Shown: piece by piece, positions 8,651 through 29,560 of the stretch | Layout of the letters: the number at the start of each line of letters is the position of its first letter | Numbering within the stretch: position 1 is the stretch's first letter | Assembly: GCA_036517855.1 (NCBI GenBank) | Contig: DATDSR010000021.1 | Location: 1 to 50,140, forward strand | Direction: 5' to 3' | Length of the DNA stretch: 50,140 nt | DNA from: Minisyncoccota bacterium | Lineage (GTDB): Bacteria > Patescibacteriota > Minisyncoccia > Phycocordibacterales > DATDSR01 | Notes under the pieces: model-generated | The model's input: the letters and a program-made list of their open reading frames with translations, nothing else | Database searches by the model: none | Told to the model about the DNA's origin: nothing | Made by a program: the position numbers and the translations under genes

Positions 8651-8783
8651 TGTCCTGACCTCCTCTTTACCGAAAGTGAGACCTTGTCTTCCCCGTTTGC
8701 AAATCTACTCCAGGCGTTCCGAAATTACAAGCTTGTGCGTGGGACGGAAATAGTTTAAGGTGATGATGGAAAGGGGAACACAA

Positions 8784-9422: not shown

Positions 9423-9430
9423 AAGAAATA

Positions 9431-9471
9431 GGGCCCCAACCGTTCCGTGAGTTACGGAATGGAAGGGGCCC
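9431..9471. terminator. bidirectional hairpin between convergent tmk and thyX-like genes
   Basis: GGGCCCC...GGGGCCC outer arms enclose CCGTTCCGT/ACGGAATGG inner arms. Confidence 0.6.
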
Positions 9472-9477
9472 TTCAAG

Positions 9478-10830: not shown

Positions 10831-10928
10831 GAGCCACCCCCTTTCCTGTCGAGAGGCTAGCACAAGCAGTTTCAAAATGCTATGCTCTTTTCAGAATTGA
10901 TCGCCGAAAACAGGCGACAGGAGGAACC

Positions 10929-15677: not shown

Positions 15678-15709
15678 CTCCCTCGACCACCTCCCCCATA
15701 ATCCCCTTA

Positions 15710-18700
15710 ATGAAACGAGCGGCTCTACTCTGTGCCCTCATCCTTGTAATACCGGCCTCCGCCCTGGCCAAAACTCCCGACTCCCGCGCCACACACAAAG
15801 CGCGTGCCTCGGCCGTCCAAGTAACCTCGACCAGCTCCGACTCTCCCTCAAGCCTCACCCAATCGGGCACTCTCACACTCTCAAGCGACCGCAAGCTTGA
15901 AGCCGAGATTGACCTATACAACGACCTCTCGTTCATCCGCGTTGAGGGAGCGCGTCCGTGGCGCGTCTTCAGTCGCCCAAGCGAACTCACCCTCACTATC
16001 TCCGGCCTCATTCCCGGCAAGACATACTATCTATACAAAGAGAAGCTCCGCAATCCTGAAACGTTCACCGCTTCGCCCACAGGCAGTTATTCTCTCACCC
16101 TCCCCACACCCACCCACAGATACCTCATCCTCAAAACCAAACCTTCCACCTACCACATAGACAACAGTGCCACCGGTGGTGACTGCCCAAGCATCGGCAC
16201 GTGGAGCACCACCACCAAAACCTGCACCCTCTCCGCCACCGCTCCCATCAACCAAACTATCGAGATAGACGACGGCGACATCACTCTCGATGGGGTAGGT
16301 CGTGTCATTAGCCACAGCGACTCCATCGGCGTCTATGCCAACAAAGATCCCATTTTCGACGACGCCATGGCCAACATCGTCATCAAGAACCTCACCCTCT
16401 TGGGCCCCACTGTGGGCGTGCACCTAGTGGACGTACCCGGCCACAGAGTGGAGAACGTGACCGTGAGGAGCACCGTCACCGGCATTGATCTGAAGGATGA
16501 CATCAACATCACGCTCACCGGCAACAGTGTCGAGGGCTCAAGTGGCACAGGCCTCATCATCCGCAACACGGCCGGTGTGACGGTCACCCGCAATAACTTC
16601 ATCGCCAACGTGACAGATCTTGAGGTGAGTGGCTCAAGCGGAGTGGTGCTAGACACCCCAACCAACCGAGGCAACTACTGGAGCAAGTTCACGGAGTGTA
16701 CCCAAGCCCCCGCTCCGGCCAACCCCAACCACTGCACCAACTCTCATGATGCTGGTCCCGTCACCGACCACCTCCCGTGGGCTTGCAAAGATGGCTGGAA
16801 GGCGGGGAAGGTGTGCGACGTGGTGGATGTGCCGCCACCGCCAGGGGGAGGAGGTGGCGGAGCCACGGATTTAATATCCCAATACAATGTTTGTGCCCCG
16901 GGCGGTAGTTATGCCGAGATCATTTCAACTTTAAATCAGGCCCCAATCTATACCACCGCTGATTTAACTAGTGTGAAATTGAAGCAAGTTCCGCCTGCTT
17001 GGGTGGTTCAAGTTACAGATTCAACCGGTGCAACCTTCTGGAAGATTAAAGATTTGTCTGATAACACAGTGGGGTATGTGGAGAAATCAAAACTGTGCAC
17101 AAATCCTGGTCGTGAAGAAGAGTTTTTAGCCAAGACTAAACTTTGGAATAATGACGCAGACACTGCTGACAGGAAGAGCATTGTGGTGGACGCAATTAAC
17201 CAGTACTACAACAATACTGACGCTCGATCACTACTCTACACAATCGGTGGGGGTGATGGCGGTAACAATTTCGGAAGTATAAATTCTAGTTCACTATTTA
17301 GACCTATCATTGGATCAATTCTACAAGACGAGACCGGCCTTTCTGCAAAATATGACAACAGAATTTGCGGCTCAAATGGTGACGGCGGTACTGGCCTAAT
17401 GCAACTAACCAATTTGCTGGGTATCGGTGGGGTTGTATTTGAGCCGAAGGGCATGGGTAGTGGATTAGTACAAAAGATACCCGGTAATGACAATTGCCGT
17501 AAAAATAATGGTTATATCGCAAAGTACTACGGTAATTCTGAGCAAGGGATAATGGCAAACGTCAAAGATGGAATTCGTGTTTTCGCAGACAAGTGGGCAC
17601 TTGCAGACAACGCAGAAGCTGTGCCAGGAGTATCTGCCCAAGAAATGCGCCTTGCCTCGGCCATCTATAGGTATAATCAGGGATCACCATTTAAGGCTCA
17701 GTTTGCCTACTATGCGTGGGCTACTTCAACAACTCCGACGAAGTTATTGAACTACCTGATAGCTAACGGATACAATAATCTACTAACAAATTCGGGCCTT
17801 ATCGGAACTACAACCGAGGCTCGAATCACATGGCTACAGCATGTTCAAACAAAGTGCGTTGGGATTACTCAAACTCGAGAGTGTTTGGAAGTACTCACAA
17901 AGGATAAATCCTTTTTTAATGGTTTTACAGCCCCACCTCTTTATCTTGAGCGCATCGGTAAGGAGATGATGGCCAATGACCTGGGTTCCACGTTCGAAAA
18001 TGCCACTTTTGGCCAGAAGCTAATTGACATAAATAATTCTCAGTTAATACTGTCGCTTGCTTCTCCGGCAGAAATACAAGTGGTTGATTCATCCGGAAGG
18101 AAGGCGGGTTCATTTGATGGTTCAGTTATTACTAAAATTCCAAATTCTGTTTATACCCCTGAGGCTGAATCGTTGACACTATTTTCGCCAGGCTCATCAA
18201 ACTTGTACAAGGTCGTGGGTAAGGCAGACGGTACGTACTCATTTTCTGTTTTATATACAAGTAGCTTGGGTGTATTCCGTGTAATTGCTGCTGGTATCCA
18301 TACCAAACTAGGGCAGATTGATACTTATAGCTTTGATTGGGATAATATCGCCTCTGGTGGCAACGGTGTGACAGTTAAGATTGATACCAATGGGGATGGT
18401 ATCCCGGAGCGAACTATCGTCCAGAACAACGAAATCACTGCTTCAGAGCTGGGCTATGGTTCAAATGGCAATGATGGGATAAAAGACAAAGTCAATATTT
18501 GCCACAAGCCACCGGGTAACCCCGGTAACGCTCATACGATCACCATAGGAGCATCGGCTATTAAAGCGCACATTGCTCATGGCGACACAGTGGGGAAATG
18601 TGATGACGATGGGAAAGATAAGGGCGACAAAGAGGACGAGGTCGAAAACAACGAGAATGGAGACAAGGATGACAAGCACGAAGAAGATGATAAAAGTGAG

Positions 18701-18796
18701 AAGGGAGGAAAGAACAAGAAGGACGATAAGCAGGACGGTGATAAAGGTAAATCATCCGAGTCTCAGCCCAAAAAAGATAAGAAAAATAAACAATGA
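15710..18796 (+). CDS. large secreted protein: right-handed beta-helix repeats, SLT-like lytic transglycosylase region and K/D/E-rich tail
   Basis: The signal peptide is MKRAALLCALILVIPASALA. Parallel beta-helix-type repeats are present (ITLTGNSVEGSSGTGLIIRNTAGVTVTRNNFIAN). GTGLMQLT resembles the SLT motif. A Cys/His motif ICHKPPGNPGNAHTITIG..AHIAHGD precedes a lysine/acidic tail. Confidence 0.75.
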   Translation: MKRAALLCALILVIPASALAKTPDSRATHKARASAVQVTSTSSDSPSSLTQSGTLTLSSDRKLEAEIDLYNDLSFIRVEGARPWRVFSRPSELTLTISGLIPGKTYYLYKEKLRNPETFTASPTGSYSLTLPTPTHRYLILKTKPSTYHIDNSATGGDCPSIGTWSTTTKTCTLSATAPINQTIEIDDGDITLDGVGRVISHSDSIGVYANKDPIFDDAMANIVIKNLTLLGPTVGVHLVDVPGHRVENVTVRSTVTGIDLKDDINITLTGNSVEGSSGTGLIIRNTAGVTVTRNNFIANVTDLEVSGSSGVVLDTPTNRGNYWSKFTECTQAPAPANPNHCTNSHDAGPVTDHLPWACKDGWKAGKVCDVVDVPPPPGGGGGGATDLISQYNVCAPGGSYAEIISTLNQAPIYTTADLTSVKLKQVPPAWVVQVTDSTGATFWKIKDLSDNTVGYVEKSKLCTNPGREEEFLAKTKLWNNDADTADRKSIVVDAINQYYNNTDARSLLYTIGGGDGGNNFGSINSSSLFRPIIGSILQDETGLSAKYDNRICGSNGDGGTGLMQLTNLLGIGGVVFEPKGMGSGLVQKIPGNDNCRKNNGYIAKYYGNSEQGIMANVKDGIRVFADKWALADNAEAVPGVSAQEMRLASAIYRYNQGSPFKAQFAYYAWATSTTPTKLLNYLIANGYNNLLTNSGLIGTTTEARITWLQHVQTKCVGITQTRECLEVLTKDKSFFNGFTAPPLYLERIGKEMMANDLGSTFENATFGQKLIDINNSQLILSLASPAEIQVVDSSGRKAGSFDGSVITKIPNSVYTPEAESLTLFSPGSSNLYKVVGKADGTYSFSVLYTSSLGVFRVIAAGIHTKLGQIDTYSFDWDNIASGGNGVTVKIDTNGDGIPERTIVQNNEITASELGYGSNGNDGIKDKVNICHKPPGNPGNAHTITIGASAIKAHIAHGDTVGKCDDDGKDKGDKEDEVENNENGDKDDKHEEDDKSEKGGKNKKDDKQDGDKGKSSESQPKKDKKNKQ

Positions 18797-20104: not shown

Positions 20105-20153
20105 CAACAATTACACTATTGTCCACACGCAAAGATTTTAGGCATAGTTTCTG

Positions 20154-20162
20154 TGGTATCAT
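20154..20162 (+). promoter_or_regulatory. extended -10 (TGgTATCAT) 8 nt upstream of ATG 20171
   Basis: There is no SD between this hexamer and the start codon, so the mRNA could be leaderless or near-leaderless. Confidence 0.4.
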
Positions 20163-20170
20163 TTGTACAT

Positions 20171-22945
20171 ATGAAGAAGTTTTTCTTTCTTGCCCCTCTC
20201 TTTGTTTTGATAATAAATTTTGCCACTCCTACTCCAAGTTTCGCCGTCAAGAATGCTCTATCGGACGCTCTTTGGGTGAGCTATTCGGGTGTTCCCGATA
20301 CGATGGTTGTGGGTGAGAGCAAAACTGTCTCTGTCACTTTCAAAAACGATTATTGGGAGAATGACGAAAACACATATTATTTAGCTGTTTGGAAGAGTGC
20401 CTTCAACGCAATTCGGCCGACTGGCTACGGGTGGGGGGTGGTAGAAGTTTCACTCGGCAAAGACGTTGATCCCCTTAAAAATTATACTTTCACCTTCACT
20501 ATCAAGGCACCCAACACGCCGGGTACTTATGATTTTGCTTGGCGGATGTACCGCGCAGACTTCAAGCCACTGGGTTTTTTCGGCCAGCCGGGGGTAATAA
20601 AAAAGATTGTTGTGACAGCCCCTCCCACGGTTGCGATTACGGCCAATGGTAAGGGGGGTTCTATTACCATCGACTATGGCACGGCGGCTGCACTTAAGTG
20701 GACTTCGACAGGAGCTACCAAGTGTACAGCTCAACCGCCAGACTGGAGTGGGGGCAAAGCGCTTAACGGTGGTGAATCAACGGGCAATCTCACATCCAAG
20801 AAGACGTACACCCTCAAATGTGAGAACGCCGCCGGCCAGTTTGATACTGACACAGTGGTAGTGAACGTTAGTGGTGGCGGCGGAGGCGGGGGTGGTGGAG
20901 GGGGAGGCGAGCAAAACAAAGCGCCTGTTGTTAATGCCGGGCCGGATCAAACTATCACTTTGCCAGCAAACGCTCAACTTGATGGCAAGGCCACGGATGA
21001 TGGTTTGCCCAACCCACCCAAGTCACTCTACTATATTTGGAGCAAAGTGGATGGTCCGGGCACGGTCACTTGGAGCAACAAAAACATTCCCAAACCTACC
21101 GCCACTTTTTCCATTGAGGGTATTTATAAGCTCAAACTTACCGCTTGTGATAATTTTAAGAACGGCTCGTGTGAAGGCCTTTCGGGCAGTGCCAATGTCC
21201 AAATTACCGTAAACAAGTCCGACGGCGGAGATAATGATCCCCCCCCCGAGCCACCCGCTTGCCCTATCTCACCCGAGACTCCGCCTGATTCACTTGGACG
21301 CACTATCGTCAACTTCACCGATGCCTATTCACCAACTTTGGCTTGGATGGGCACAAAGGAGAGCGAGTCCCACTCTCAAGCTTCGCAAAACGTTTCGCTC
21401 ACTGCCGGCAATTACCGTGTTACCCTGGCCGAGTGGGATGACCACACCGGCCAAAAGAATTGTTGGCAGAGTGGTAACTGTCCGAAGGAGGGTTGGCAAC
21501 AACCAAACGAAGCCTACCACTTAAGTATCAACGACGGACAGTTGGCTACCCCCGATACAGGTGACTTGACTGACGATGAGGACCTGCGTGTGGATGTGGT
21601 TAACACAGTTTTGACTTTGACCGACGTTACGACTGTCCAACCCTTCCACGCGCCAACCTACCCAGATAACTCCAACTCCAACTCCGTCGTGGCCATCTGC
21701 GCCTCCTTCGACAGGCTCGCCCCGCCAGAGATTACATTTGACGCCAATCCCACCAACGTGCCAGAGGGGGGCACCACTTCTCTTACCTGGACAAGCACAC
21801 ACACCGACTCTTGCGCGAGTTCCCAAGGCTCCGAGGACTGGGCAAATGGGTTCCGTCCCACGGAGGGCGAGTGGTCCTCGCAGGCACTTACCCCCGGAGA
21901 GTACACATATATCTTAAGTTGCGTTGGCCCGGGAGGCCTGACCTCCGCGAGTGTCACCGTCACTGTGGGCCCCATATTCCCGCCCACTCTTACCTTCACG
22001 GCCGATCCCACGAGTGTAGACTCTGGCGAAACGACCACTCTCACTTGGGATAGTAGTTACGCGGAGAGTTGCTTAGCCACAGATGGTTCGCAAGGTTGGC
22101 CCGGCGTGTATCAAGCCGATGGCGAGTGGACCTCTGGCCCTCTCACTCAAACCACCACCTTCACCCTTACCTGCACCGGAGCAAAGGGTGAAGTTATCAA
22201 GGACGCAACAGTGACAGTCAAAGATAAAAGCCAAGACCCCACCCTCACCTTCACCGCCGACCCCACCTCGGTTCTATCTGGCGAGACAACTACTCTCACG
22301 TGGACCACTGATAACGTAGAGAGTTGCACGGCCTCGAGTGTGCCCCCAGATCCTTTGTGGACGGGTGCTGTACCGCCAAACGGCAACAGAGAGACAAGTC
22401 CAATCAACCAAACCACTATTTACACGCTCACCTGTTTGGGCACCAACGGCGATACGATTGTAAAAGATGTGCAGGTCACCGTGAGCCCCTTCACCTTCTC
22501 GGTGGATTTGAAGGCTCGGGCAGGTGGTGCTTATGGTGATACAGCAGAGGGGGTTGTGCCACTTAATGACCTTGATTTGCGAGCGATTATTGCAGGCACT
22601 GCCAAAGGTCCGATTGATTATGTGTTTGACTGTGGCAACGGTGACCCGCTCATCAATAAAGTAGACAACACGGGTACCTCGCCCTACGATGTACTAGATG
22701 TATGCAGTTACCCAGAGGAGGGTAAATTTACCGTGGAGGTAACCGCCACGCGCAGTGGCATAGTCGACAGTGACACAGCCGAGGTTACCGTAGCCTTGGC
22801 CTGTCAGCTTGACCTTGGTATTGGTATGGCTACGCCGCCGCGCTCTGATCGTTTTGCTGTCCTGGCATCTCTAGACTATCGAGAGCTTTTTCGGCCTCTG
22901 CGGCAATCTCTTCTAGCAACTGTGCCTTTCTTGTTTCGGCTCTAG
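20171..22945 (+). CDS. large secreted multi-domain surface protein (NBR1-like N-terminal domain, Ig/PKD-like repeats, poly-Gly linker)
   Basis: The signal peptide is MKKFFFLAPLFVLIINFATPTPSFA. There is an 11-Gly run at 20873..20908. NKAPVVNAGPDQTITLP is a PKD/Ig-like segment. Three tandem ~85-aa repeats follow. The C-terminal 40-50 aa look unstructured and overlap a convergent ORF. Confidence 0.8.
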   Translation: MKKFFFLAPLFVLIINFATPTPSFAVKNALSDALWVSYSGVPDTMVVGESKTVSVTFKNDYWENDENTYYLAVWKSAFNAIRPTGYGWGVVEVSLGKDVDPLKNYTFTFTIKAPNTPGTYDFAWRMYRADFKPLGFFGQPGVIKKIVVTAPPTVAITANGKGGSITIDYGTAAALKWTSTGATKCTAQPPDWSGGKALNGGESTGNLTSKKTYTLKCENAAGQFDTDTVVVNVSGGGGGGGGGGGGEQNKAPVVNAGPDQTITLPANAQLDGKATDDGLPNPPKSLYYIWSKVDGPGTVTWSNKNIPKPTATFSIEGIYKLKLTACDNFKNGSCEGLSGSANVQITVNKSDGGDNDPPPEPPACPISPETPPDSLGRTIVNFTDAYSPTLAWMGTKESESHSQASQNVSLTAGNYRVTLAEWDDHTGQKNCWQSGNCPKEGWQQPNEAYHLSINDGQLATPDTGDLTDDEDLRVDVVNTVLTLTDVTTVQPFHAPTYPDNSNSNSVVAICASFDRLAPPEITFDANPTNVPEGGTTSLTWTSTHTDSCASSQGSEDWANGFRPTEGEWSSQALTPGEYTYILSCVGPGGLTSASVTVTVGPIFPPTLTFTADPTSVDSGETTTLTWDSSYAESCLATDGSQGWPGVYQADGEWTSGPLTQTTTFTLTCTGAKGEVIKDATVTVKDKSQDPTLTFTADPTSVLSGETTTLTWTTDNVESCTASSVPPDPLWTGAVPPNGNRETSPINQTTIYTLTCLGTNGDTIVKDVQVTVSPFTFSVDLKARAGGAYGDTAEGVVPLNDLDLRAIIAGTAKGPIDYVFDCGNGDPLINKVDNTGTSPYDVLDVCSYPEEGKFTVEVTATRSGIVDSDTAEVTVALACQLDLGIGMATPPRSDRFAVLASLDYRELFRPLRQSLLATVPFLFRL
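21731..22485 (+). repeat. three tandem ~255-nt (about 85-aa) domain repeats inside the surface protein
   Basis: The repeats are ITFDANPTNVPEGGTTSLTWTS...C, LTFTADPTSVDSGETTTLTWDS...C and LTFTADPTSVLSGETTTLTWTT...C. Each ends in ...VTV. Confidence 0.8.
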
Positions 22946-23132: not shown

Positions 23133-26100
23133 ATGGCAGATAACAAGACAAATAAAGATATAAAATCAGACGTGGCTAAGCGCGAGGAGGAGACTCTGCG
23201 CTTTTGGCAAGAGAAAGGCATATTTGAAGCCACTTTGTCAAATAGACAAGGCAAACCCGAGTTTGTCTTCTACGATGGGCCGCCTTTCGCAACCGGTTTG
23301 CCTCATACGGGATCATTGCTCTCTTCGGTCATAAAAGATGTTATCCCGCGCTATAAAACAATGCGCGGTTTCTATGTGCGTCGCCGTTGGGGTTGGGATA
23401 CCCACGGTCTACCTATCGAGAATATGGTTGAGAAGGATTTGGGTTTGAAGAGTAAGAAGGATATCGAGGCGATGGGCATCGAGAAGTTCAACGAGCTTTG
23501 TCGTGCCCAAGTGCTTGAATATGTGAATGATTGGAAGCGCTACATTGACCGCATTGGTCGCTGGGTAGACTTCGACAACTCATACAAAACGATGGATGCC
23601 ACTTACACAGAGAGTGTGTGGTGGGCGCTTAAGCAAATGCACGAAAAAGGTTTGCTCTATGAAGGGCGCAAGGTACTTATGTATTGTCCGCACTGTGAGA
23701 CGCCATTGGCCAAAGCCGAGATAGCGATGGATAACAGCTACAAGGATGTAACCGAAGAAGCCGTGACTGTTAAATTTAAATTGCAAATTGCAAATTCAAA
23801 ACATTTCAACATTGCAGATACGCCCACGTATCTGCTGGCCTGGACCACTACGCCGTGGACTCTGCCCGCAAATGTAGCTTTGGCTGTCGGGCCTGAAATT
23901 GAATACTCACTGGTATCCCTCCCCGAACCCTCCCTTAATTTAAGGGAGGGCAGGGTGGGATATGTAGTCGCCTCTGCCCTTGTCCCCAAAATCTTTGGCG
24001 AAAATATAAAAATAGAGAAAACTTTCTTTGGCAAAGAGCTGGAGGGACTTGAATATGAGCCTCTCTATGAACTTGATGCGGTGAAGAAAACTGGCAAGCG
24101 CTCGCACTACGTTGCCCTTGCAGATTTTGTGAACACGGAGGATGGGACGGGCATAGTGCATACGGCTGTTATATATGGCGAGGATGACTATCAGTTGGGG
24201 CTCAAACAGGATTTGCCCATGGTGCCACTCTTAAATCCAAACGGTACTTATAATAACGATGCGCCCGAGTTTCTGCGTGGGCAATATATAAAGAAAGCCG
24301 ACAAGATGGTTATTGAGGACCTCGAGAGGCCGGAGCGAAATCTTTTATTCGCAAAAGCGCCCAACACTCACAGCTATCCGCATTGCTATCGATGTGGCAC
24401 AGCCCTCATATATAACGCCCTCTCAAGTTGGTTTATAAATATCCAAAAGATTAAGGCGCGGATGTTAGAGCTTAACGAAAATATTAATTGGGTGCCAGAG
24501 CACTTAAAGCACGGCCGTTTTAAAAACATCGTGGAGAGTGCCCCCGACTGGACAATCTCACGCAATCGTTATTGGGCCAGCCCTTTGCCGATATGGAAGT
24601 GCGCCGAGTGTAAAAAAGTTGAAGTGGTTGGCTCGCTGGAGGAGCTTAGCGGCAAGGCGGCTAAGTCGGGAAACACATATCTCTTAATGCGGCACGGTGA
24701 GTCGGTGTCTAATTTGGGAGAGTTGATAGACGCGATACCAGGCGGTTCTGGTGATGTGCTGACAGAGAGAGGCAAAGAGCAAGTCACTAAAAGTGCAATT
24801 AAGTTGAGCAAAGTGGATTACATATTCCACTCACCTTTCAATCGTTCCAAGCAAAGCGCGCAGATTGCAGCGCAAGTTCTTGGAGTTTCGCCAGAGAATA
24901 TTGTAGAAGACGATCGTGTAGGTGAGTACCAGGCACCTGGTTGGGAGGGTCGTACATGGTCGCAACTATGGGCAGAAGTTTCAAATGCGAGAGATAATCT
25001 TCCACATACACTAGGTCGTATGTTTTCTTTCCTGGGAGGAATTGATAACAAGTATCGCGGCAAAAAAATTCTTGTGATCTCTCACGGTCTGCCAATTTGT
25101 CTGTTGATGGGGATTGATCGAGAACTCGCCAATGCAGAAGTAAACGAGTTCAAATACATACCAACCCCGCGCAACGCTCGCGGAGAGCTCGACTTCCATC
25201 GGCCATACATAGATGAGATAAAACTCAAGTGCCCTTGTGGTGGCGAGATGGTAAGGATACCTGAAGTGGTGGACTGTTGGGTAGAGTCCGGCTCGATGCC
25301 TTTTGCCGAGTATCATTACCCGTTTGAAAACAAGAGCGAGTTTGAGAAGCGTAGCCCAGGAGATTTCATAGCTGAATATGTGGGTCAAACACGCACGTGG
25401 TTTTATTATTTGCACACCCTTTCAACTTTGCTATTCGGCCATGAAGCATTTAAGAATGTTGTTGTGACTGGTAATATCCTTGCCGCCGATGGGGGCAAGA
25501 TGAGCAAGAGCAAGGGTAATTACACCGATCCACTTGAACTCATAGCCCGCTACGGCGCGGACGCCTATCGTTACCACTTGATGACAAGTGTGGTAATGGC
25601 TGCTGAGGACTTCAACTTTACCGACGATGGAGTGAAGGAAGTGCAGCAGCGTCTGGTGAACATCCTTTGGAACTCACTCCAGTTTTACCTAATGTACGCA
25701 GGAGAAACTCAAAAGGCAAAAGGCAAAGGTCAAAATTACAATTCAAAATCTGAAAATGTTTTGGATAAGTGGATTCTCGCTCGCTTGGTCGAGCTGCACA
25801 AGGAAGTAACAGAGAATTTGGATAAATACGATACGATTAAAGCTGGTCGCCCAATAAAAGATTTCGTCACCGATTTTTCAACCTGGTACATCCGCCGCTC
25901 ACGCGATCGCTTCAAGAGTGATGACGTGGCAGATAGGGAAGCGGCAATCGGCACAACCCGCTTTGTGCTCCTCGAACTCTCTAAACTCATAGCTCCCTTT
26001 ATGCCCTTCCTCGCCGAGCAAATCTACAAAGCCGTCGGCGGCCCACTCGATTCAGTCCACCTCGAAAACTGGAGTGAATTTAAGGTTGAGGAAGAACATT

Positions 26101-26576
26101 CCAACATTCTTAAGAACATGAGAGTGTCACGTGAGGTGGTAACCCTTGCGCTTGATGCACGTTCGGCCGCGAACATAAAAGTGAGACAGCCTCTGCAGTA
26201 TTTAAGATATCAAACAAACAAACTCGAGGCAGAATACGAAAAGATAATCGCGGACGAAGTAAACGTAAAGGAAGCCAAGCATACAGAGGAAATTCGTGAG
26301 CAAGACGGTCGGGTGATTAAAGAATCAAATGGTGTGCGCGTTGGCCTTAACATAGAAATCACCCCAGAACTCAAACTCGAAGGCGATATGCGTGATTTAG
26401 TGCGCCAAATTCAAGAAAAGCGCAAAGAAATGGGCCTTGCTCCCGGCGACAAAATCACTGTCACCTTGCCCCAATCACTGAGCGACCTGGTCGCTAAGTA
26501 TGAGGCAGAAATCAAAAAAGCCGTCCACGCCAATGGTTTGACCATGGGCGACGAACTTAAAATAGAAAAAGCATGA
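23133..26576 (+). CDS. ileS: isoleucine--tRNA ligase with nested histidine-phosphatase-like domain
   Basis: PPFATGLPHTGS is the HIGH region and WTTTPWTLPAN the editing-domain motif. WKCAECKK ... KCPCGG are the zinc knuckles, followed by CWVESGSMPF and GGKMSKSKGN (KMSKS). At 1147 aa it is longer than the conserved parts account for. Confidence 0.95.
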   Translation: MADNKTNKDIKSDVAKREEETLRFWQEKGIFEATLSNRQGKPEFVFYDGPPFATGLPHTGSLLSSVIKDVIPRYKTMRGFYVRRRWGWDTHGLPIENMVEKDLGLKSKKDIEAMGIEKFNELCRAQVLEYVNDWKRYIDRIGRWVDFDNSYKTMDATYTESVWWALKQMHEKGLLYEGRKVLMYCPHCETPLAKAEIAMDNSYKDVTEEAVTVKFKLQIANSKHFNIADTPTYLLAWTTTPWTLPANVALAVGPEIEYSLVSLPEPSLNLREGRVGYVVASALVPKIFGENIKIEKTFFGKELEGLEYEPLYELDAVKKTGKRSHYVALADFVNTEDGTGIVHTAVIYGEDDYQLGLKQDLPMVPLLNPNGTYNNDAPEFLRGQYIKKADKMVIEDLERPERNLLFAKAPNTHSYPHCYRCGTALIYNALSSWFINIQKIKARMLELNENINWVPEHLKHGRFKNIVESAPDWTISRNRYWASPLPIWKCAECKKVEVVGSLEELSGKAAKSGNTYLLMRHGESVSNLGELIDAIPGGSGDVLTERGKEQVTKSAIKLSKVDYIFHSPFNRSKQSAQIAAQVLGVSPENIVEDDRVGEYQAPGWEGRTWSQLWAEVSNARDNLPHTLGRMFSFLGGIDNKYRGKKILVISHGLPICLLMGIDRELANAEVNEFKYIPTPRNARGELDFHRPYIDEIKLKCPCGGEMVRIPEVVDCWVESGSMPFAEYHYPFENKSEFEKRSPGDFIAEYVGQTRTWFYYLHTLSTLLFGHEAFKNVVVTGNILAADGGKMSKSKGNYTDPLELIARYGADAYRYHLMTSVVMAAEDFNFTDDGVKEVQQRLVNILWNSLQFYLMYAGETQKAKGKGQNYNSKSENVLDKWILARLVELHKEVTENLDKYDTIKAGRPIKDFVTDFSTWYIRRSRDRFKSDDVADREAAIGTTRFVLLELSKLIAPFMPFLAEQIYKAVGGPLDSVHLENWSEFKVEEEHSNILKNMRVSREVVTLALDARSAANIKVRQPLQYLRYQTNKLEAEYEKIIADEVNVKEAKHTEEIREQDGRVIKESNGVRVGLNIEITPELKLEGDMRDLVRQIQEKRKEMGLAPGDKITVTLPQSLSDLVAKYEAEIKKAVHANGLTMGDELKIEKA
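24650..25190 (+). other. in-frame histidine phosphatase (PGAM/His_Phos_1-like) domain inserted in IleRS
   Basis: The motifs are YLLMRHGESVSN (RHG), LTERGKEQ, FHSPFNRSKQSAQIAA, DDRVGEYQAPGWEGRTW and KILVISHGLPI (SHG). They fall at about aa 507-685 of the ileS product. Confidence 0.7.
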
Positions 26577-27139
26577 AGCGTGCAATCGTTGTGCATCAAT
26601 GGGGAGCTAATCCGAGTCGTGATTGGCACCCCTGGTTGAAGGGGCAGCTGGAGGAGAAAGGTTTCGAGGTTCTTGTGCCCGAAATGCCGGATACTGACGC
26701 ACCAGAGATAGACAAATGGGTTGGGCGGTTAGCTGAAGTGGTTGGCAAAGCCAGTAAAGATACGATTTTGATTGGCCATTCGGTTGGTTGTCAAACAATA
26801 TTACGTTATCTGCAAACTCTTGGGACGGGGGAGAGGGTTAATAAAGTAGTATTGGTCGCTCCATGGCTCGAGCTTTCGTCAGAAGTTATGCAAGAGCCAG
26901 CCTACGGACCCCTGGCCAAATCTTGGTTGGAAACGCCTATTGATTGGGACAAGGTCAAACAGCATTCTGATTCCTTCACCTGCTTCTTTTCCAAAGACGA
27001 TCCATATGTACCGATTGCCAATGCAGAAATTTTCGGCAAGCTACTGGGTGCTAAAATAATAATCGAAGATGATATGGGCCACTACGAAGATGACAGCAAT
27101 GTCAAAGAAGTCCCTCAAGTTTTGAAAGAAATAATCTGA
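26573..27139 (+). CDS. alpha/beta serine hydrolase, YdeN/RBBP9-like
   Basis: 188 aa with a GHSVGC nucleophile elbow. The start overlaps the ileS stop (ATGA). Confidence 0.75.
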   Translation: MKRAIVVHQWGANPSRDWHPWLKGQLEEKGFEVLVPEMPDTDAPEIDKWVGRLAEVVGKASKDTILIGHSVGCQTILRYLQTLGTGERVNKVVLVAPWLELSSEVMQEPAYGPLAKSWLETPIDWDKVKQHSDSFTCFFSKDDPYVPIANAEIFGKLLGAKIIIEDDMGHYEDDSNVKEVPQVLKEII

Positions 27140-27612
27140 TGGCAGAACGGGTAATTACAACTGAAGCTTTGGTGGTGGGGTCGCGGCCGAGTGGGGAGGC
27201 AAGCTTAGTACTTACCCTATTCACGCGGGAGATGGGGTTGGTGCAGGCTTATGCTCGCGGGGTGCGTTTGCACAAGGCCAAGTTGCGATATCACGTGCAG
27301 GATTATTCTTTTGCCAATGTCACACTAGTGCCTGGAGTTGAGTATTGGCGCCTCATTGGTGCCATTCCCTCGAGTATTGGCGTTAATCAAGCCACAACCT
27401 ACTTAGCTCAGGCATCGGGGCTCATAAATCGCTTTATGGGTTTGCACCAGGCGCATCCGGAGATATTTGACTTACTTGATGGTTGTGAAGGTGATTCACA
27501 GCGTTTCTCGTTGGGGATGCTTGACCATTTGGGTTATGTGGGTGTGGAAGCACGTTCGCCTGTGCACGCCACAGCTCTCATTGAGCGGGCGTATCGCGAG
27601 AGCCACCTTTAG
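27139..27612 (+). CDS. recO: short RecO-like DNA repair protein
   Basis: An N-terminal OB-like pattern (TEALVVGSRPSGEASLVLTLFTREMGLVQAYARGVR) is present. The protein is shorter than canonical RecO. Confidence 0.55.
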   Translation: MAERVITTEALVVGSRPSGEASLVLTLFTREMGLVQAYARGVRLHKAKLRYHVQDYSFANVTLVPGVEYWRLIGAIPSSIGVNQATTYLAQASGLINRFMGLHQAHPEIFDLLDGCEGDSQRFSLGMLDHLGYVGVEARSPVHATALIERAYRESHL

Positions 27613-27634
27613 CCCCGACCGAGGCGTCGGGGTG

Positions 27635-27643
27635 TGTTATAAT
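27635..27643 (+). promoter_or_regulatory. extended -10 TGtTATAAT exactly 6 nt upstream of ATG 27650
   Basis: It follows a CCCCGAC/GTCGGGG hairpin (27613..27632). No SD is present, which suggests a leaderless mRNA. Confidence 0.45.
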
Positions 27644-27649
27644 TTGCCA

Positions 27650-29560
27650 ATGCCTCCAGAGGGAAGTCAGAATTTAATAGATAGGATGAAAGAGCGTCTA
27701 TACAGACGTGGTGCATTTAAGGCAGATGTGTCACGTTCCAAATTTTCCCAAGCGCGCGACGATGTACCCACAGCTTTCACCCCATCCGAAGATACAAGTG
27801 GCAGTGGCATGCTAACACCTAAGTTACTAAAAAAATTACTTATCTTCGCAACTGCCTTTTTCGTGATGGCTGTAATGGCCGCGATATACATTGTGTGGTC
27901 TGGCTCAAATGTGGTCTCTTCTAGTAACCTCGACATTGCTCTTAAGGGCCCGGTTTCGATTAAAGCTGGCGAAGAGCTCTCGCTCGGTGTTATCATTTCC
28001 AACAATAACAGTATAAATCTTGAGGGTGCTGATTTGCTGGTGACTTTTCCCCCAGGCACACGTACCCCAGGTAATCTTGAGCAAGAGCAGCAACATTACC
28101 GCAAAGACCTTGGTGTCATTACACAAGGGCAAGTGCGCAACGAGAGGATTAAGGCCGTCTTGTTCGGTCCTGCTGGGAGCACCCAAGATATCAAGATCGT
28201 ATTGGAATATCGGACGGCTGGTAGCAATGCGATTTTTGAAAAAACCGTTACTTACAAAGCGAATATAAGTTCGGCTCCACTCGACATTGTTCTTGTTATG
28301 CCAGATGAGGTCACGGCCGGTGGCCAGATCGATTTATCATTTGATCTCTCAACGGGCAGTGCCGAGGGGCTCTCGGGTGTTCTCTTGCAACTTACGTACC
28401 CGTCAGGCTTTAAGTTCGTCTCGGCTACCCCTAAACCAGTTGCAGGTAACAATGTGTGGGGTATCGGCACTTTGAGCTCGCACGCTCCAAGGCATATTAG
28501 CGTTTCGGGTATACTCGACGGTCAGGATGGGGAAGAGAAGCTCTTCAAAGCTTTGGCCGGCTCCGCCTCTGCCCAATCAGAAAGCAAAGTGGGGGTGCCT
28601 TATGCTAGCGCTTTGCACACTGTTAGTATGCGCAAATCGTTTGTCGGTCTATCGTCCACCCTAAACGGTGAAGCAGGGGCGGAACTTGTAGCAAATCCTG
28701 CCACCACAATCCGTGGCGACATAACCTGGGTCAATAATTTGCCTGATAAGATACAAGATGCGCAAGTGCACGTAAGTTTCGCTGGCAGCGCTTTCGATCA
28801 GGCGAGTGTAGTACCGGGTAATGGCGCGTATGCTTCGATTAATAATACGATTGAGTGGAAGCAACAACACGAACAAAGCCTCGGCATTATTGATGCCGGC
28901 GGTACCTCGCATGTTAATTTTGACTTCAACACACTGCCAGTATCGGCTCTCACAAATTCGGATGCCAAGAATCCCTATGTTGACCTCACAATTACGTTTG
29001 ACGGTACGCGCGTGATAAACGGAGCGCCTGGCTCGTCCGTTCATGCGAGAGTTACCAAGCGCGTCAAAGTTAATTCCAAACTCGACTTGGTGACCCGAGC
29101 GGTTTACTCAAGTGGCCCCTTCTTAAACACGGGCCCACTACCACCCAAGGCCAATGTGGAGACTACCTACACCGTGCTCTGGTCGGCGGTCAACACCTCT
29201 AATGAGGTCGACAATCTTACCGTCACAGCCGTGCTCCCCAGCCACTCTCGCTTTGCGAACAACATATCACCAGCCGCCGCCAATCTAAAGTATGATCCAA
29301 CCCGTGGCACCATTACGTGGAACATTGGTCGCTTGCCTGCGGGCAACTTGGGTGCGCCAGGTGCGGAGGTTGCCTTTCAGATTGCCCTCCTGCCTTCCGT
29401 AACCCAGGTGGGTCAGACCTTGCCCCTTGTCACCAACATGGCGGCCCAAGGCACCGACCTCTTTACAGGCACGACCTTGCAGGATAGTGTAAACCTCATA
29501 GATATGCGCGTATCCACTGACCCCAACTTCCAAGAGGAGTGGGCCAGGGTCTCACAGTAA
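27650..29560 (+). CDS. membrane-anchored protein with repeated beta-sandwich (DUF11/CARDB-like) regions
   Basis: ORF 27467..29560 trimmed to ATG 27650, because the upstream part overlaps recO. It has a TM segment (LLIFATAFFVMAVMAAIYIVW) and then a long Ser/Thr/Asn/Val-rich extracellular part. Confidence 0.65.
   Translation: MPPEGSQNLIDRMKERLYRRGAFKADVSRSKFSQARDDVPTAFTPSEDTSGSGMLTPKLLKKLLIFATAFFVMAVMAAIYIVWSGSNVVSSSNLDIALKGPVSIKAGEELSLGVIISNNNSINLEGADLLVTFPPGTRTPGNLEQEQQHYRKDLGVITQGQVRNERIKAVLFGPAGSTQDIKIVLEYRTAGSNAIFEKTVTYKANISSAPLDIVLVMPDEVTAGGQIDLSFDLSTGSAEGLSGVLLQLTYPSGFKFVSATPKPVAGNNVWGIGTLSSHAPRHISVSGILDGQDGEEKLFKALAGSASAQSESKVGVPYASALHTVSMRKSFVGLSSTLNGEAGAELVANPATTIRGDITWVNNLPDKIQDAQVHVSFAGSAFDQASVVPGNGAYASINNTIEWKQQHEQSLGIIDAGGTSHVNFDFNTLPVSALTNSDAKNPYVDLTITFDGTRVINGAPGSSVHARVTKRVKVNSKLDLVTRAVYSSGPFLNTGPLPPKANVETTYTVLWSAVNTSNEVDNLTVTAVLPSHSRFANNISPAAANLKYDPTRGTITWNIGRLPAGNLGAPGAEVAFQIALLPSVTQVGQTLPLVTNMAAQGTDLFTGTTLQDSVNLIDMRVSTDPNFQEEWARVSQ

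What the first reader, a model, noticed from the sequence alone, without database searches (positions are those of the whole stretch)
24650..25190. A complete histidine-phosphatase (PGAM-like) domain is nested inside isoleucyl-tRNA synthetase
About 175 residues separate the first zinc-knuckle pair (PIWKCAECKKVEVVGSLEEL) from the conserved [38 protein letters not shown] block. Other IleRS sequences I know have only a short linker there. The insert carries the ordered hallmarks of the histidine phosphatase superfamily. These are LLMRHGES (catalytic RHG), LTERGKEQ and SPFNRSKQSAQIAA (the conserved Arg). EYQAPGWEGRTW and KILVISHG (the second catalytic His) complete the set. The reading frame is continuous and the flanking synthetase motifs are intact (HIGH-like, editing WTTTPW, KMSKS), so this is a domain insertion rather than a gene fusion artefact. 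A phosphatase embedded next to the tRNA acceptor or synthetic site could act on a phosphorylated nucleotide, a tRNA 3-prime or 2-prime phosphate, or a regulatory metabolite. I am not aware of this architecture being described.
Basis: partly seen in the sequence, partly recalled or inferred. Interest (0 to 1): 0.75.

Follow-up and report, generated by a model that had tools for sequence, protein, structure and literature searches.

The report
Phosphatase domain nested inside isoleucyl-tRNA synthetase
The enzyme that loads isoleucine onto tRNA here carries a complete, apparently active phosphatase domain in the middle of its catalytic region; it is real, shared by hundreds of ultra-small Patescibacteria species, absent from every paper search made here, and its substrate is unknown.

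Summary
ORF 23133-26576 (+) encodes a 1147-aa type-2 IleRS (TIGR00392, 858 bits). About 165 residues (aa 512-676, nt 24666-25160) replace a 5-residue linker of T. thermophilus IleRS. They match Pfam His_Phos_1 (E 3e-16 to 3e-18) and fold confidently (pLDDT 93) as a PhoE/PspA-like histidine phosphatase. The insert lies in the CP3 subdomain, between the two Cys pairs of its zinc knuckle.

It is not a chimera. All 120 best IleRS relatives, at least 436 species genomes and one closed Nomurabacteria chromosome share the architecture. The catalytic residues Arg520, His521, Arg571 and His651 are invariant in 230/230 nested copies, and Glu598 is present in 223.

Three findings are new. The same domain sits at other IleRS loops, in tandem (up to 3 copies detected in IleRS, 4 in a ValRS) and fused to TsaC. 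In some lineages it is a separate gene immediately upstream of an insert-less ileS.

The best reading is an autonomous, active phosphomonoesterase kept yoked to IleRS. Its substrate is unresolved: tRNA-end, PPi/nucleotide and protein substrates remain open. No paper describing the architecture was found. I class it as a new variant of a known kind, interest about 0.6.

The parts
23133..26576 (+). ileS: type-2 isoleucyl-tRNA synthetase with a nested phosphatase, 1147 aa
   Evidence: ORF list. TIGR00392 ileS scores 857.8 bits against a cutoff of 621.4. Pfam finds tRNA-synt_1, Anticodon_1, DUF5915 and His_Phos_1. The AF2 full-length model has pLDDT 86.6 and pTM 0.77. Foldseek's lowest E-value is 2.2e-83 to P. 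megaterium IleRS2 entry 8C8V; the related entry 8C8U gives E 4.7e-81 with the highest TMt among the IleRS2 entries, 0.81.
23304..23315 (+). HIGH signature, here H-T-G-S (fourth His replaced by Ser)
   Evidence: Translation. Position 61 is Ser in 83/100 close relatives, His in 12 and Thr in 5.
23841..23858 (+). Editing-domain motif WTTTPW
   Evidence: Translation. It is invariant in alignment A3.
24600..24611 (+). First Cys pair of the CP3 zinc knuckle (C490-A-E-C493), equivalent to T. thermophilus Cys461/Cys464
   Evidence: Alignment to 1ILE, translation, and CP3/Zn assignment from PMC7191050.
24666..25160 (+). Nested branch-1 histidine phosphatase domain (aa 512-676)
   Evidence: Pfam PF00300 at E 2.7e-16 and 2.9e-18. 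AF2 model pLDDT 93.1, pTM 0.90. Foldseek matches to PspA 4IJ6 (E 1e-10), Rv2419c, TIGAR and PhoE. Gap relative to 1ILE.
24690..24698 (+). RHG motif: Arg520 and the nucleophilic His521
   Evidence: R520 and H521 are present in 230/230 nested copies and G522 in 216/230. Coordinates.
24843..24845 (+). Arg571, second phosphate-pocket arginine (SPFNR)
   Evidence: Present in 230/230 copies.
24924..24926 (+). Glu598, general acid/base
   Evidence: Glu in 223/230 copies and Asp in 6.
25083..25085 (+). His651, second catalytic histidine (SHG)
   Evidence: Present in 230/230 copies.
25230..25238 (+). Second Cys pair of the CP3 zinc knuckle (C700-P-C702), equivalent to T. thermophilus Cys502/Cys504
   Evidence: Alignment to 1ILE and translation. 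Cys is kept in only 26-40% of relatives.
25497..25511 (+). KMSKS signature
   Evidence: Translation. K789, K792 and S793 are invariant.

Best explanation
SHOWN. The ORF is one genuine bifunctional protein. It is a complete type-2 IleRS with a self-folding branch-1 histidine-phosphatase domain of about 165 residues. The domain is nested in the CP3 subdomain, between the two Cys pairs of its zinc knuckle. This is an old, lineage-wide trait of Patescibacteria (Paceibacteria/'Parcubacteria' and relatives), not an assembly artefact. The whole catalytic set is under strict purifying selection.

INFERRED. The domain is an active phosphomonoesterase using the standard superfamily mechanism. His521 attacks the phosphate to form a phospho-histidine. 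Arg520, Arg571 and His651 (with Asn527 and Arg629) hold the phosphoryl group. Glu598 protonates the leaving group and then activates water.

COMMITTED GUESS. The domain works as a self-contained second enzyme of the PhoE/PspA kind, acting on a small or generically recognised phosphomonoester. It is kept physically or transcriptionally yoked to IleRS: nested in most lineages, and encoded by the gene immediately upstream in others. It is not a mechanistic part of the aminoacylation or editing chemistry. The physiological substrate is not identified.
For: Architecture and reality:
- HMM matches.
- About 170 residues replace a 5-residue linker of 1ILE.
- All 120 best IleRS relatives (52-73% identity, many independent assemblies) carry PF00133 plus PF00300.
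- 192 clusters at 50% identity score E<=1e-30.
- At least 436 species genomes carry it, including a closed chromosome, CP060229.1, with an intact 1188-aa ORF.

Activity:
- R520, H521, R571 and H651 are present in 230/230 copies. E598 is in 223 (plus 6 Asp) and R629 in 229.
- Every extra, tandem, ValRS, TsaC-fused or stand-alone copy that is complete keeps the set, with Asp for the Glu in stand-alone P0222; the one copy cut by a contig end (P0139 d4) shows only R-H-G-N-R.

Autonomous fold:
- The insert alone gives pLDDT 93.1 and pTM 0.90.
- In the full-length model the host body still superposes on IleRS2.

Small-substrate type:
- Foldseek and PDB sequence neighbours are metabolite phosphatases: PspA, Rv2419c, TIGAR, PhoE, CobC, HFP.
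- The domain is mildly acidic, median pI 5.9.

Geometry does not matter:
- The same subfamily is inserted at three or more different IleRS loops, in tandem arrays.
- It also exists as a stand-alone gene 1 nt upstream of a 931-aa insert-less ileS in the same argS...ileS-recO synteny.
- CPR proteins are promiscuous fusion hosts. TsaC is fused to Ogt, TruB, a 2H phosphoesterase, NUDIX or GNAT. IleRS also hosts GNAT or a P-loop kinase.
Against: - The recurrent partners are not random. IleRS (three sites), a ValRS and TsaC are all ATP-dependent adenylate-forming enzymes of tRNA metabolism. The TsaC fusion lies beside the CCA-adding enzyme, TGT and TruD. This hints at a substrate tied to tRNA or to adenylate/PPi chemistry.
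- About 21 of 230 copies have lost almost the whole 'cap' (9-12 residues instead of 40) yet keep the catalytic core. That fits poorly with a specific metabolite pocket. It is more typical of open-site enzymes such as SixA.
- One relative co-nests a P-loop kinase-like domain, reminiscent of kinase-phosphatase RNA end-healing enzymes.
- No enzymology exists.
- I could not obtain model coordinates, so I could not see where the active site points.
- The split-gene adjacency could reflect descent (fission) rather than selection for co-expression. It therefore supports autonomy but not any particular function.
Confidence: 0.5

Rival explanations
1. tRNA-directed phosphatase. The domain removes a 3'- or 2'-terminal phosphate (or another phosphomonoester) from tRNA. 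Damaged or processed tRNA ends would then be healed on, or next to, the synthetase that must charge them.
For: All hosts and partners belong to tRNA metabolism: IleRS, ValRS and TsaC. The TsaC fusion neighbours the CCA-adding enzyme with an HD domain, TGT and TruD. One IleRS co-nests a P-loop kinase-like domain with weak similarity to Pnkp1 and small-molecule kinases. CPR TsaC is also fused to 2H cyclic phosphodiesterases. Cap-less variants have an open active site.
Against: To my knowledge no branch-1 histidine phosphatase is known to act on RNA ends. The nearest structures are metabolite phosphatases. The domain is acidic rather than basic. Insertion sites are spread along the protein, including the loop before the anticodon-binding domain, which is hard to reconcile with cis action on the CCA end. 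There is no reason why tRNA(Ile) alone would need this. The kinase match is weak (E 0.02-0.05).
Confidence: 0.2
2. By-product processing. The domain hydrolyses a product of adenylate-forming reactions, either PPi (pulling activation forward) or AMP/other nucleotides. It would supply a housekeeping pyrophosphatase or nucleotidase activity in very small genomes.
For: IleRS, ValRS and TsaC all convert ATP to an acyl-adenylate plus PPi. ArgRS is the conserved upstream neighbour in the split form. Copy-number expansion, flexible position and a dispensable cap suit a tiny diffusible substrate recognised mainly through its phosphate. TsaC-NUDIX fusions exist in the same organisms.
Against: PPi hydrolysis is not an established activity of branch-1 histidine phosphatases (my own knowledge). 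I could not test whether these genomes lack ppa, because only 50 kb and short flanks were available. Nothing explains why IleRS rather than any other synthetase is the main host. The papers read did not say that CPR lack pyrophosphatase.
Confidence: 0.12
3. Protein phosphatase. The domain reverses inhibitory phosphorylation of IleRS itself or of other translation factors, for example by HipA- or Doc-like toxin kinases. It would be a built-in guard.
For: The superfamily includes protein phosphatases (SixA, PGAM5, Sts-1; my own knowledge). There is a weak SixA match. Cap-less open variants exist. A tethered domain at several loops or in several copies could reach sites in cis or in trans. The window's subclade has Ser in place of the fourth HIGH histidine.
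Against: There is no evidence of phosphorylation. Most copies have a full cap like small-molecule enzymes. Divergent nested IleRS keep the canonical HxGH, so there is no correlation with the Ser. No kinase partner was seen.
Confidence: 0.08
4. Moonlighting glycolytic enzyme. The domain is a cofactor-dependent phosphoglycerate mutase hosted by IleRS.
For: Weak matches to the short archaeal dPGM model NF038349 (E 4e-12 for the insert; the top phosphatase-type match for the TsaC-fused copy).
Against: The score is far below the curated cutoff, 46 bits against 225. Residues that bind the second substrate group in dPGM are replaced (residue roles from my own knowledge). These are Arg and Tyr after the catalytic Glu and Asn after the second His. 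The consensus here is E-[IVL]-x-G..., H-G-x-P. The cap is dispensable.
Confidence: 0.05
5. Artefact or relic: an assembly chimera, or a decayed non-catalytic spacer.
For: None, beyond the fact that the window is an uncultured-organism assembly.
Against: A 100% identical protein occurs on an independent ENA contig. More than 120 relatives from many assemblies, at least 436 species genomes and a closed chromosome share the architecture. Composition is flat across the junctions. The catalytic residues are invariant. The fold is confident.
Confidence: 0.01

Closest known systems
Broad-specificity and metabolite histidine phosphatases of branch 1: PhoE (1H2E/1EBB), PspA phosphoserine phosphatase (4IJ5/4IJ6), Rv2419c glucosyl-3-phosphoglycerate phosphatase, CobC, TIGAR
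   Same: Same fold (Foldseek E 1e-10 to 1e-7, TM 0.6-0.69). Same catalytic residues in the same order. The phosphatase-type motif E-x-x-x-G-x-[FW]-E-G follows the catalytic Glu.
   Different: Only 17-22% identical. Never above any curated NCBIfam cutoff. Nested inside another enzyme rather than free-standing. Shorter: 165 aa here, with a 30-residue cap that is 9-12 residues in some relatives. Substrate unknown.
Type-2 IleRS (T. thermophilus 1ILE; Priestia megaterium IleRS2 8C8U/8C8V; yeast 8WND)
   Same: Full set of domains, with the C-terminal ARD2/ARD3 (DUF5915) and the CP-core zinc site. The IleRS2 entries give TMt 0.77-0.81.
   Different: CP3 carries a 165-residue enzyme domain where 1ILE has 5 residues. 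HIGH is H-T-G-S. The CP3 zinc ligands are kept here but lost in most relatives.
Bifunctional RNase H / acid phosphatase (NCBIfam NF005567, PRK07238; M. tuberculosis Rv2228c type)
   Same: A nucleic-acid enzyme joined to a branch-1 histidine phosphatase. It is the best NCBIfam phosphatase match of the insert (E 3.7e-13). In that case too the functional link between the two halves is unclear (my own knowledge).
   Different: That is an end-to-end fusion, not a nested domain. The score of 49.5 bits is far below the cutoff of 326. The host enzyme is different.
IleRS with a GNAT domain (NCBIfam NF040702 'ileS_w_GNAT')
   Same: Shows that IleRS hosting an accessory enzyme domain is a recognised variant. 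A CPR relative (P0168) carries GNAT at site B together with the site-A phosphatase.
   Different: The window protein has no GNAT and scores 325 bits against a cutoff of 1999. The accessory chemistry is different.
SixA phosphohistidine phosphatase (minimal, cap-less histidine phosphatase)
   Same: Small size and, in about 9% of nested copies, near absence of a cap. Weak HMM match.
   Different: 20.6 bits against a cutoff of 74.5. Most nested copies have a 40-residue cap.
Idiosyncratic insertions of class Ia synthetases (CP1 editing domain, LeuRS leucine-specific domain) and appended domains of eukaryotic synthetases
   Same: Surface-loop insertions into the Rossmann fold are the normal way this family acquires functions. 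CP3 differs in topology between known IleRS.
   Different: Apart from the universal CP1 editing domain, those insertions bind tRNA or partner proteins. None is a phosphatase, to my knowledge.

Membership tests
Histidine phosphatase superfamily, branch 1 (Pfam PF00300) | Significant match to the family HMM above the gathering score | tested here: met
   60.3 bits (whole protein) and 66.7 bits (insert) against a cutoff of 21.7; E 2.7e-16 and 2.9e-18.
Histidine phosphatase superfamily, branch 1 (Pfam PF00300) | N-terminal RHG motif with the nucleophilic His | tested here: met
   R520-H521-G522. R and H are in 230/230 nested copies and G in 216.
Histidine phosphatase superfamily, branch 1 (Pfam PF00300) | Second Arg and second His completing the phosphate pocket | tested here: met
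   R571 in 230/230 and H651 in 230/230.
Histidine phosphatase superfamily, branch 1 (Pfam PF00300) | Acidic proton donor (Glu) after the third strand | tested here: met
   E598 in 223/230 plus 6 Asp.
Histidine phosphatase superfamily, branch 1 (Pfam PF00300) | dPGM-like alpha/beta fold | tested here: met
   AF2 pLDDT 93.1 and pTM 0.90. 298 PDB matches at E<=1e-3; the 50 best listed are all histidine phosphatases or mutases, the best at E 1e-10 with TM 0.66.
Histidine phosphatase superfamily, branch 1 (Pfam PF00300) | Phosphatase or mutase activity through a phospho-His intermediate | not testable with these tools
   Needs enzymology: wild type versus H521A on pNPP and a substrate panel.
Cofactor-dependent phosphoglycerate mutase (dPGM) | Score above the curated equivalog cutoffs | tested here: not met
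   NF038349 scores 46.4 bits against 225. The GpmB, GpmA and other dPGM models are all far below cutoff.
Cofactor-dependent phosphoglycerate mutase (dPGM) | Substrate-binding Arg and Tyr after the catalytic Glu and Asn after the second His (residue roles from my own knowledge of dPGM) | tested here: not met
   The consensus is E-[IVL]-x-G-x-[FLY]-[ED]-G-K and S-H-G-x-P.
Isoleucyl-tRNA synthetase, type 2 | ileS equivalog HMM above cutoff | tested here: met
   TIGR00392 scores 857.8 bits against 621.4, in two stretches flanking the insert.
Isoleucyl-tRNA synthetase, type 2 | Class I signatures HIGH and KMSKS | tested here: inconclusive
   KMSKS is canonical. HIGH reads H-T-G-S, with Ser at position 4 in 83/100 close relatives. 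The effect on catalysis is unknown.
Isoleucyl-tRNA synthetase, type 2 | CP1 editing domain with the threonine-rich motif | tested here: met
   WTTTPW at aa 237-242 is invariant in relatives. There are PDB matches to isolated IleRS editing domains.
Isoleucyl-tRNA synthetase, type 2 | Type-2 C-terminal organisation (ARD2/ARD3, no C-terminal zinc domain) and overall fold | tested here: met
   Pfam finds Anticodon_1 plus DUF5915. Foldseek E 2.2e-83 to IleRS2 entry 8C8V; entry 8C8U gives TMt 0.81.
Isoleucyl-tRNA synthetase, type 2 | Aminoacylation of tRNA(Ile) | not testable with these tools
   No second ileS lies in the 50-kb window. The whole genome is not available.
ileS_w_GNAT (NCBIfam NF040702) | Score above the cutoff and a GNAT domain | tested here: not met
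   324.8 bits against 1999. There is no acetyltransferase Pfam hit in the window protein.
Bifunctional RNase H/acid phosphatase (NF005567) | Score above the cutoff and an RNase H domain | tested here: not met
   49.5 bits against 326. No RNase H domain.
SixA phosphohistidine phosphatase (TIGR00249) | Score above the cutoff | tested here: not met
   20.6 bits against 74.5.

The most novel reading that the evidence does not exclude
The phosphatase is a genuine accessory catalytic activity of class Ia synthetases in Patescibacteria, and its substrate belongs to the charging cycle. It would either remove blocking 2'/3' phosphates from tRNA ends, or hydrolyse PPi or nucleotide by-products of adenylate formation. 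That would explain why the same subfamily recurs in IleRS (three loops, tandem arrays), in a ValRS, on TsaC, and as the gene immediately upstream of insert-less ileS. It would be a previously unknown kind of synthetase-linked repair or product-removal function, conserved across a phylum-scale lineage.
Probability: 0.3. Interest if true: 0.85.

Novelty: new variant of a known kind. Interest (0 to 1): 0.62.

Why it matters
Aminoacyl-tRNA synthetases are among the best-studied enzymes, and new catalytic domains inside their cores are rare. Here a second, apparently active enzyme sits in the catalytic body of IleRS throughout a huge, uncultivated bacterial lineage with minimal genomes. It is duplicated up to four times, moved between loops and, in some lineages, split off as an adjacent gene. 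That pattern says the phosphatase matters to these cells and is tied to IleRS.

Identifying its substrate could do one of two things. It could reveal a new link between tRNA charging and RNA-end or nucleotide/PPi metabolism. Or it could fill a missing housekeeping step in Patescibacteria metabolism. The question is directly testable with one recombinant protein and two point mutants.

There is also a practical consequence for annotation. Such proteins are named 'class I tRNA ligase family protein' or 'hypothetical protein'. Pathway predictors may also read the nested domain as a phosphoglycerate mutase.

Tried and rejected
- **Chimera or frameshift artefact.** Rejected on flat composition, an identical protein on another contig, hundreds of relatives and a closed genome.
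- **Word-indexed search with the insert alone.** It found only 3 fragments and first suggested rarity. The full-length search and the exhaustive profile search corrected this.
- **'Stand-alone' hits P0001 and P0003.** These turned out to be pieces of ileS broken by in-frame TGA codons. True stand-alone genes were confirmed only after looking at their contigs.
- **Downstream Ser_hydrolase gene, which overlaps the ileS stop.** I tested it as a possible partner. It is present in only 2 of 82 related loci, so it is not part of the system. recO and the DUF11-like gene are the conserved neighbours.
- **Link between the HIGH His-to-Ser change and the nested phosphatase.** Rejected, because divergent nested IleRS keep HxGH.
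- **Basic surface for RNA binding.** Not supported; the median pI is 5.9.
- **Classifying the co-nested P-loop domain of P0239.** Only weak, unspecific kinase matches were found.
- **Rosetta-stone reasoning from the TsaC fusion.** Weakened, because only 4 clusters carry it and CPR TsaC is fused to many unrelated domains.
- **Literature.** Nine full-text searches and five papers read. One was a 96,219-sequence IleRS architecture survey with no mention of a phosphatase. None described the architecture, and none stated that CPR lack pyrophosphatase.
- **Rfam scan of the window.** No RNA features.
- **Orientation of the phosphatase pocket.** I could not obtain model coordinates, so its direction relative to the tRNA path is undetermined.
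Full report
**1. The observation**

The window has one long ORF at 23133-26576 (+), 1147 aa. Translating 24651-25190 gives GKAAKSGNTYLLMRHGES...PRNARGEL. NCBIfam names the protein isoleucine--tRNA ligase: TIGR00392 scores 857.8 bits against a cutoff of 621.4, matched in two stretches that flank the insert.

Pfam finds tRNA-synt_1, Anticodon_1 and DUF5915. Between them is His_Phos_1 at aa 517-660, E 2.7e-16, or 2.9e-18 for the excised piece. Against T. thermophilus IleRS (1ILE), residues 14-511 align to 10-482 and residues 686-1013 to 488-819. About 170 residues therefore stand where 1ILE has five. GC content is flat (0.46-0.50) across both junctions.

**2. Where the insert sits**

Counting along the 1ILE alignment, the flanking Cys pairs are C490/C493 and C700/C702. 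They correspond to T. thermophilus Cys461/464 and Cys502/504. The Candida IleRS structure paper calls this region the CP3 subdomain. It notes that only the Thermus CP3 has a zinc motif and that CP3 topology differs between the three solved IleRS (PMC7191050). So the phosphatase is nested in a known variable surface element of the Rossmann-fold insertions.

The other zinc site, C185/C188/C418/C421 at the CP core, is essentially invariant in relatives (Cys in 99-100 of 100). The CP3 cysteines survive in only 26-40%.

**3. Is it real, and how widespread?**

A word-indexed search with the insert alone found only three fragments. The full-length search showed that all 120 best IleRS relatives carry PF00133 plus PF00300. 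These are 52-73% identical, 1066-1209 aa, and come from NCBI, JGI, ENA and Logan assemblies. One ENA protein is 100% identical. Source names include Paceibacterota, Parcubacteria GW2011, Zambryskibacteria, Vogelbacteria and Minisyncoccia.

An exhaustive profile search of 1.84 billion cluster representatives gave 192 clusters at E<=1e-30. Nearly all are IleRS, or fragments of it, with the domain at about aa 460-720. The best 80 are nearly all labelled Patescibacteria (Kaiser-, Nomura-, Yonath- and Taylorbacteria, Elulimicrobium). They include the closed chromosome CP060229.1, where the gene is an intact 1188-aa ORF. A chimera is excluded.

**4. Is the phosphatase intact?**

I aligned 230 nested copies. 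R520, H521, S567, R571 and H651 are present in 230/230. R629 is in 229, E598 in 223 (plus 6 Asp), N527 in 218 and G522 in 216. The insert is only 32-51% identical between relatives whose whole proteins are 55-77% identical. It therefore drifts fast except at the catalytic set.

AlphaFold2 on the insert with 103 aligned sequences gives pLDDT 93.1 and pTM 0.90. Foldseek places it among branch-1 histidine phosphatases. The best hit is PspA phosphoserine phosphatase 4IJ6 (E 1e-10, TM 0.66). It is followed by Rv2419c, TIGAR, PhoE, Entamoeba PSP, HFP and CobC, all at 17-22% identity. By sequence the nearest solved proteins are PhoE and PspA, at E 5e-5. No NCBIfam equivalog cutoff is approached.

The residues that make dPGM a mutase are replaced, so a phosphatase is more likely than a mutase (residue roles from my own knowledge). 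The full-length model has pLDDT 86.6 and pTM 0.77. It superposes on Priestia IleRS2, with E 2.2e-83 for 8C8V and TMt 0.81 for 8C8U. The host enzyme is therefore complete.

**5. What the relatives add**

*(a) Position and copy number vary.* Mapping unusual hits onto the window protein shows the same domain at three places:
- Site A, aa 511|677, in CP3. This is the majority.
- Site B, about aa 730|741, the loop before DFIAEG.
- Site C, about aa 856-869|872-877, the low-confidence loop before the anticodon-binding domain.

There are tandem pairs at site A, and some proteins have copies at B and C but none at A. Copies at a given site are orthologous between proteins and are old, at 30-45% identity. 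Every complete copy keeps the catalytic set; the fourth P0139 copy is cut by the contig end and shows only R-H-G-N-R.

*(b) Other hosts exist.* P0139 is a ValRS (NF004349, E 1e-122) followed by four tandem copies. P0266 and three related clusters are TsaC (TIGR00057 above its cutoff) fused to the domain. On the P0274 contig, a member of this group, the gene lies near the CCA-adding enzyme, TGT, a queuosine-salvage gene and TruD.

*(c) Split forms exist.* True stand-alone genes of the subfamily (P0230, P0256, P0272) lie between argS and ileS. In L083 the phosphatase stop codon is 1 nt from the start of a 931-aa IleRS. That IleRS has only a 10-residue CP3 linker and no His_Phos, and is 48.5% identical to the window's. 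It is followed by the same recO, DUF11-like gene and class II synthetase as in the window. The window itself has argS about 9 kb upstream.

*(d) The cap is dispensable.* The segment between E598 and R629 is 40 residues in 155/230 copies and 30 in the window. It is only 9-12 in about 21 copies.

*(e) The domain is mildly acidic*, with median pI 5.9.

*(f) CPR IleRS and TsaC are general fusion hosts.* P0239 has a P-loop kinase-like domain at site B, with only weak kinase matches. P0168 has a GNAT at site B and an IS200-like domain in the editing region. TsaC is fused mostly to Ogt, and also to TruB, a 2H phosphoesterase, NUDIX, GNAT or MPG.

**6. Mechanism**

*Shown:* a complete, self-folding, selectively maintained histidine-phosphatase catalytic core inside a complete IleRS.

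*Inferred from the superfamily's established chemistry:* a phospho-His521 intermediate, a phosphate pocket of Arg520, Arg571 and His651, and Glu598 as acid/base.

*Committed reading (about 0.5):* the domain is an autonomous phosphomonoesterase of the PhoE/PspA type. It is kept yoked to IleRS but takes no part in aminoacylation chemistry. Four things support this. Its place in the host, its copy number and even its covalent attachment are all interchangeable. Its nearest structures are metabolite phosphatases. It is not basic. These organisms fuse many unrelated enzymes.

*Against this reading:* the repeated choice of adenylate-forming, tRNA-linked hosts and the cap-less variants point elsewhere. 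They suggest a substrate tied to tRNA ends (about 0.2) or to PPi/nucleotide by-products (about 0.12). A protein-phosphatase guard (about 0.08) and a dPGM role (about 0.05) are less likely. The adjacency of the split genes may simply reflect descent by fission. It proves that the phosphatase is needed and works untethered, but not what it does.

**7. Comparison with the known, and novelty**

By every sequence and fold criterion tested, the insert is a member of the histidine phosphatase superfamily, branch 1. It is not a member of any curated subfamily (dPGM, GpmB, CobC, PspA, SixA or RNase H/acid phosphatase). The host is a type-2 IleRS with an unusual H-x-G-S signature.

Two architectural precedents exist: NCBIfam's 'ileS_w_GNAT' and the RNase H-acid phosphatase fusion. 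Nine full-text searches found no description of a phosphatase in IleRS or in any synthetase. Neither did reading a 2026 survey of 96,219 IleRS architectures. The sequences and their Pfam domain pairs have been public for years. The novelty therefore lies in recognition and function, not in data. I class it as a new variant of a known kind, interest about 0.6.

**8. Limits**

- No enzymology was possible.
- No model coordinates were available, so the orientation of the pocket is unknown.
- No whole genomes were available, so phyletic complementarity (ppa, PGM and so on) could not be tested.
- The taxon labels are those of the records. Several 'Saccharibacteria', one 'Nanoarchaeia' and one 'Azotimanducaceae' label look unreliable.

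Noticed in passing
L001 ~8423-12010 (NCBI GCA_027024305.1, JALVSO010000054.1); same contig as L002: ileS with the same nested phosphatase is split into five called genes by 10 in-frame TGA codons. Nine of the ten align with a Trp that is invariant in 56 relatives, and one aligns with an invariant Asp. This genome therefore appears to read UGA as Trp (code-4-like), not as Gly (code 25) as in Gracilibacteria and Absconditabacteria. Other genes on the contig, such as DNA ligase, are fragmented too.
   Followed up: partly
Related proteins P0181, P0197, P0216, P0259, P0154, P0214, P0232, P0260, P0262 (window-protein numbering: site A 511|677, site B ~730|741, site C ~856-869|872-877): The same phosphatase subfamily is inserted at three different IleRS surface loops and in tandem arrays (two or three copies at site A). 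Some proteins carry copies at sites B and C but none at A. All these IleRS copies keep the catalytic residues, and copies at a given site are orthologous between proteins.
   Followed up: yes
P0139 (1161 aa, cut by the contig end): A valyl-tRNA synthetase (NF004349, E 1e-122) is followed from aa 426 by four tandem histidine-phosphatase domains of the same subfamily. The three complete copies keep the full catalytic set; the fourth is cut by the contig end. The insertion lies after Pfam tRNA-synt_1 position 198, a different place from CP3.
   Followed up: partly
P0266, P0273-P0275; loci L085-L087: TsaC (threonylcarbamoyl-AMP synthase) is fused C-terminally to the same phosphatase in four clusters. 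On the P0274 contigs the neighbours are the CCA-adding enzyme (with HD domain), TGT, a queuosine-salvage gene and TruD. Patescibacterial TsaC is otherwise fused mostly to the Ogt DNA-binding domain (PF01035), and also to TruB, a 2H phosphoesterase, NUDIX, GNAT or methylpurine glycosylase.
   Followed up: partly
L083 4303-9367, L084, L088 3327-7712: This is the split form: an argS, stand-alone phosphatase (189-196 aa), ileS operon. There is 1 nt between the phosphatase stop and the start of an insert-less 931-aa IleRS. That IleRS keeps the CP3 Cys pairs and a canonical HYGH. The downstream synteny (recO, DUF11-like gene, class II synthetase) matches the window.
   Followed up: yes
P0239 aa ~737-869; P0168 aa 340-461 and 935-1063: Other enzyme domains are nested in Patescibacteria IleRS. 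P0239 has a P-loop kinase-like domain (AAA_18/AAA_33, weak) at site B. P0168 has a GNAT acetyltransferase at site B and an IS200-like Y1 transposase domain inside the editing region. Both also carry the site-A phosphatase.
   Followed up: partly
window 23304-23315: The class I HIGH signature reads H-T-G-S. Position 4 is Ser in 83/100 close relatives (His 12, Thr 5), while more distant nested IleRS and the insert-less one keep H-x-G-H. The fourth His normally contacts ATP, so the consequence is unknown.
   Followed up: partly
window 24600-24611 and 25230-25238: The CP3 zinc-knuckle cysteines are present in the window protein but are replaced (mostly by Asp, Ser or Glu) in 60-74% of relatives. 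The CP-core zinc site (C185, C188, C418, C421) is invariant or nearly so (Cys in 99-100 of 100).
   Followed up: partly
relatives P0066, P0069, P0064, P0076, P0086, P0094 and others (about 21 of 230): The 'cap' segment between the catalytic Glu and the conserved Arg is 40 residues in most copies and 30 in the window. In this group it is cut down to 9-12 residues with all catalytic residues retained.
   Followed up: partly
window 26573-27139 (+): A 188-aa Ser_hydrolase (PF06821, alpha/beta hydrolase) gene overlaps the ileS stop codon by 4 nt. It is found in only 2 of 82 related loci, so it is a lineage-specific insertion between ileS and recO.
   Followed up: yes
window 15674-18796 and 20153-22945 (+): Two very large putative surface proteins lie between argS (12096-13856) and ileS. 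One is 1040 aa with a NosD/beta-helix domain. The other is 930 aa with a PKD domain, a Gly run and repeated Thr/Ser-rich modules. They interrupt the argS-ileS neighbourhood seen elsewhere.
   Followed up: no
window 9478-10875 (-): A ThyX-like ORF of 465 aa. The Thy1 domain covers only aa 62-246, so about 200 C-terminal residues have no Pfam match.
   Followed up: no
window 27139-27612 and 27467-29560 (+): The RecO_N-only ORF (157 aa) overlaps the listed TTG start of the next ORF (697 aa, weak DUF11 match) by 146 nt. The true start of the second gene is probably further downstream. Both genes are conserved downstream of ileS in 59 and 49 of 82 loci.
   Followed up: partly
L049 (DATGWK010000081.1) and L030 (JBLHGD010000014.1): Records labelled 'Nanoarchaeia archaeon' and 'Azotimanducaceae bacterium' carry a typical Patescibacteria-type IleRS with the nested phosphatase (a 1191-aa ORF in L049). 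They are probably mis-binned or mislabelled contigs. Many hits labelled 'uncultured Candidatus Saccharibacteria' may likewise be generic labels.
   Followed up: no
window 1-50140: No Rfam family reaches its gathering score anywhere in the 50-kb window: no tRNA, rRNA, riboswitch or T-box, including upstream of ileS, argS and metG.
   Followed up: no
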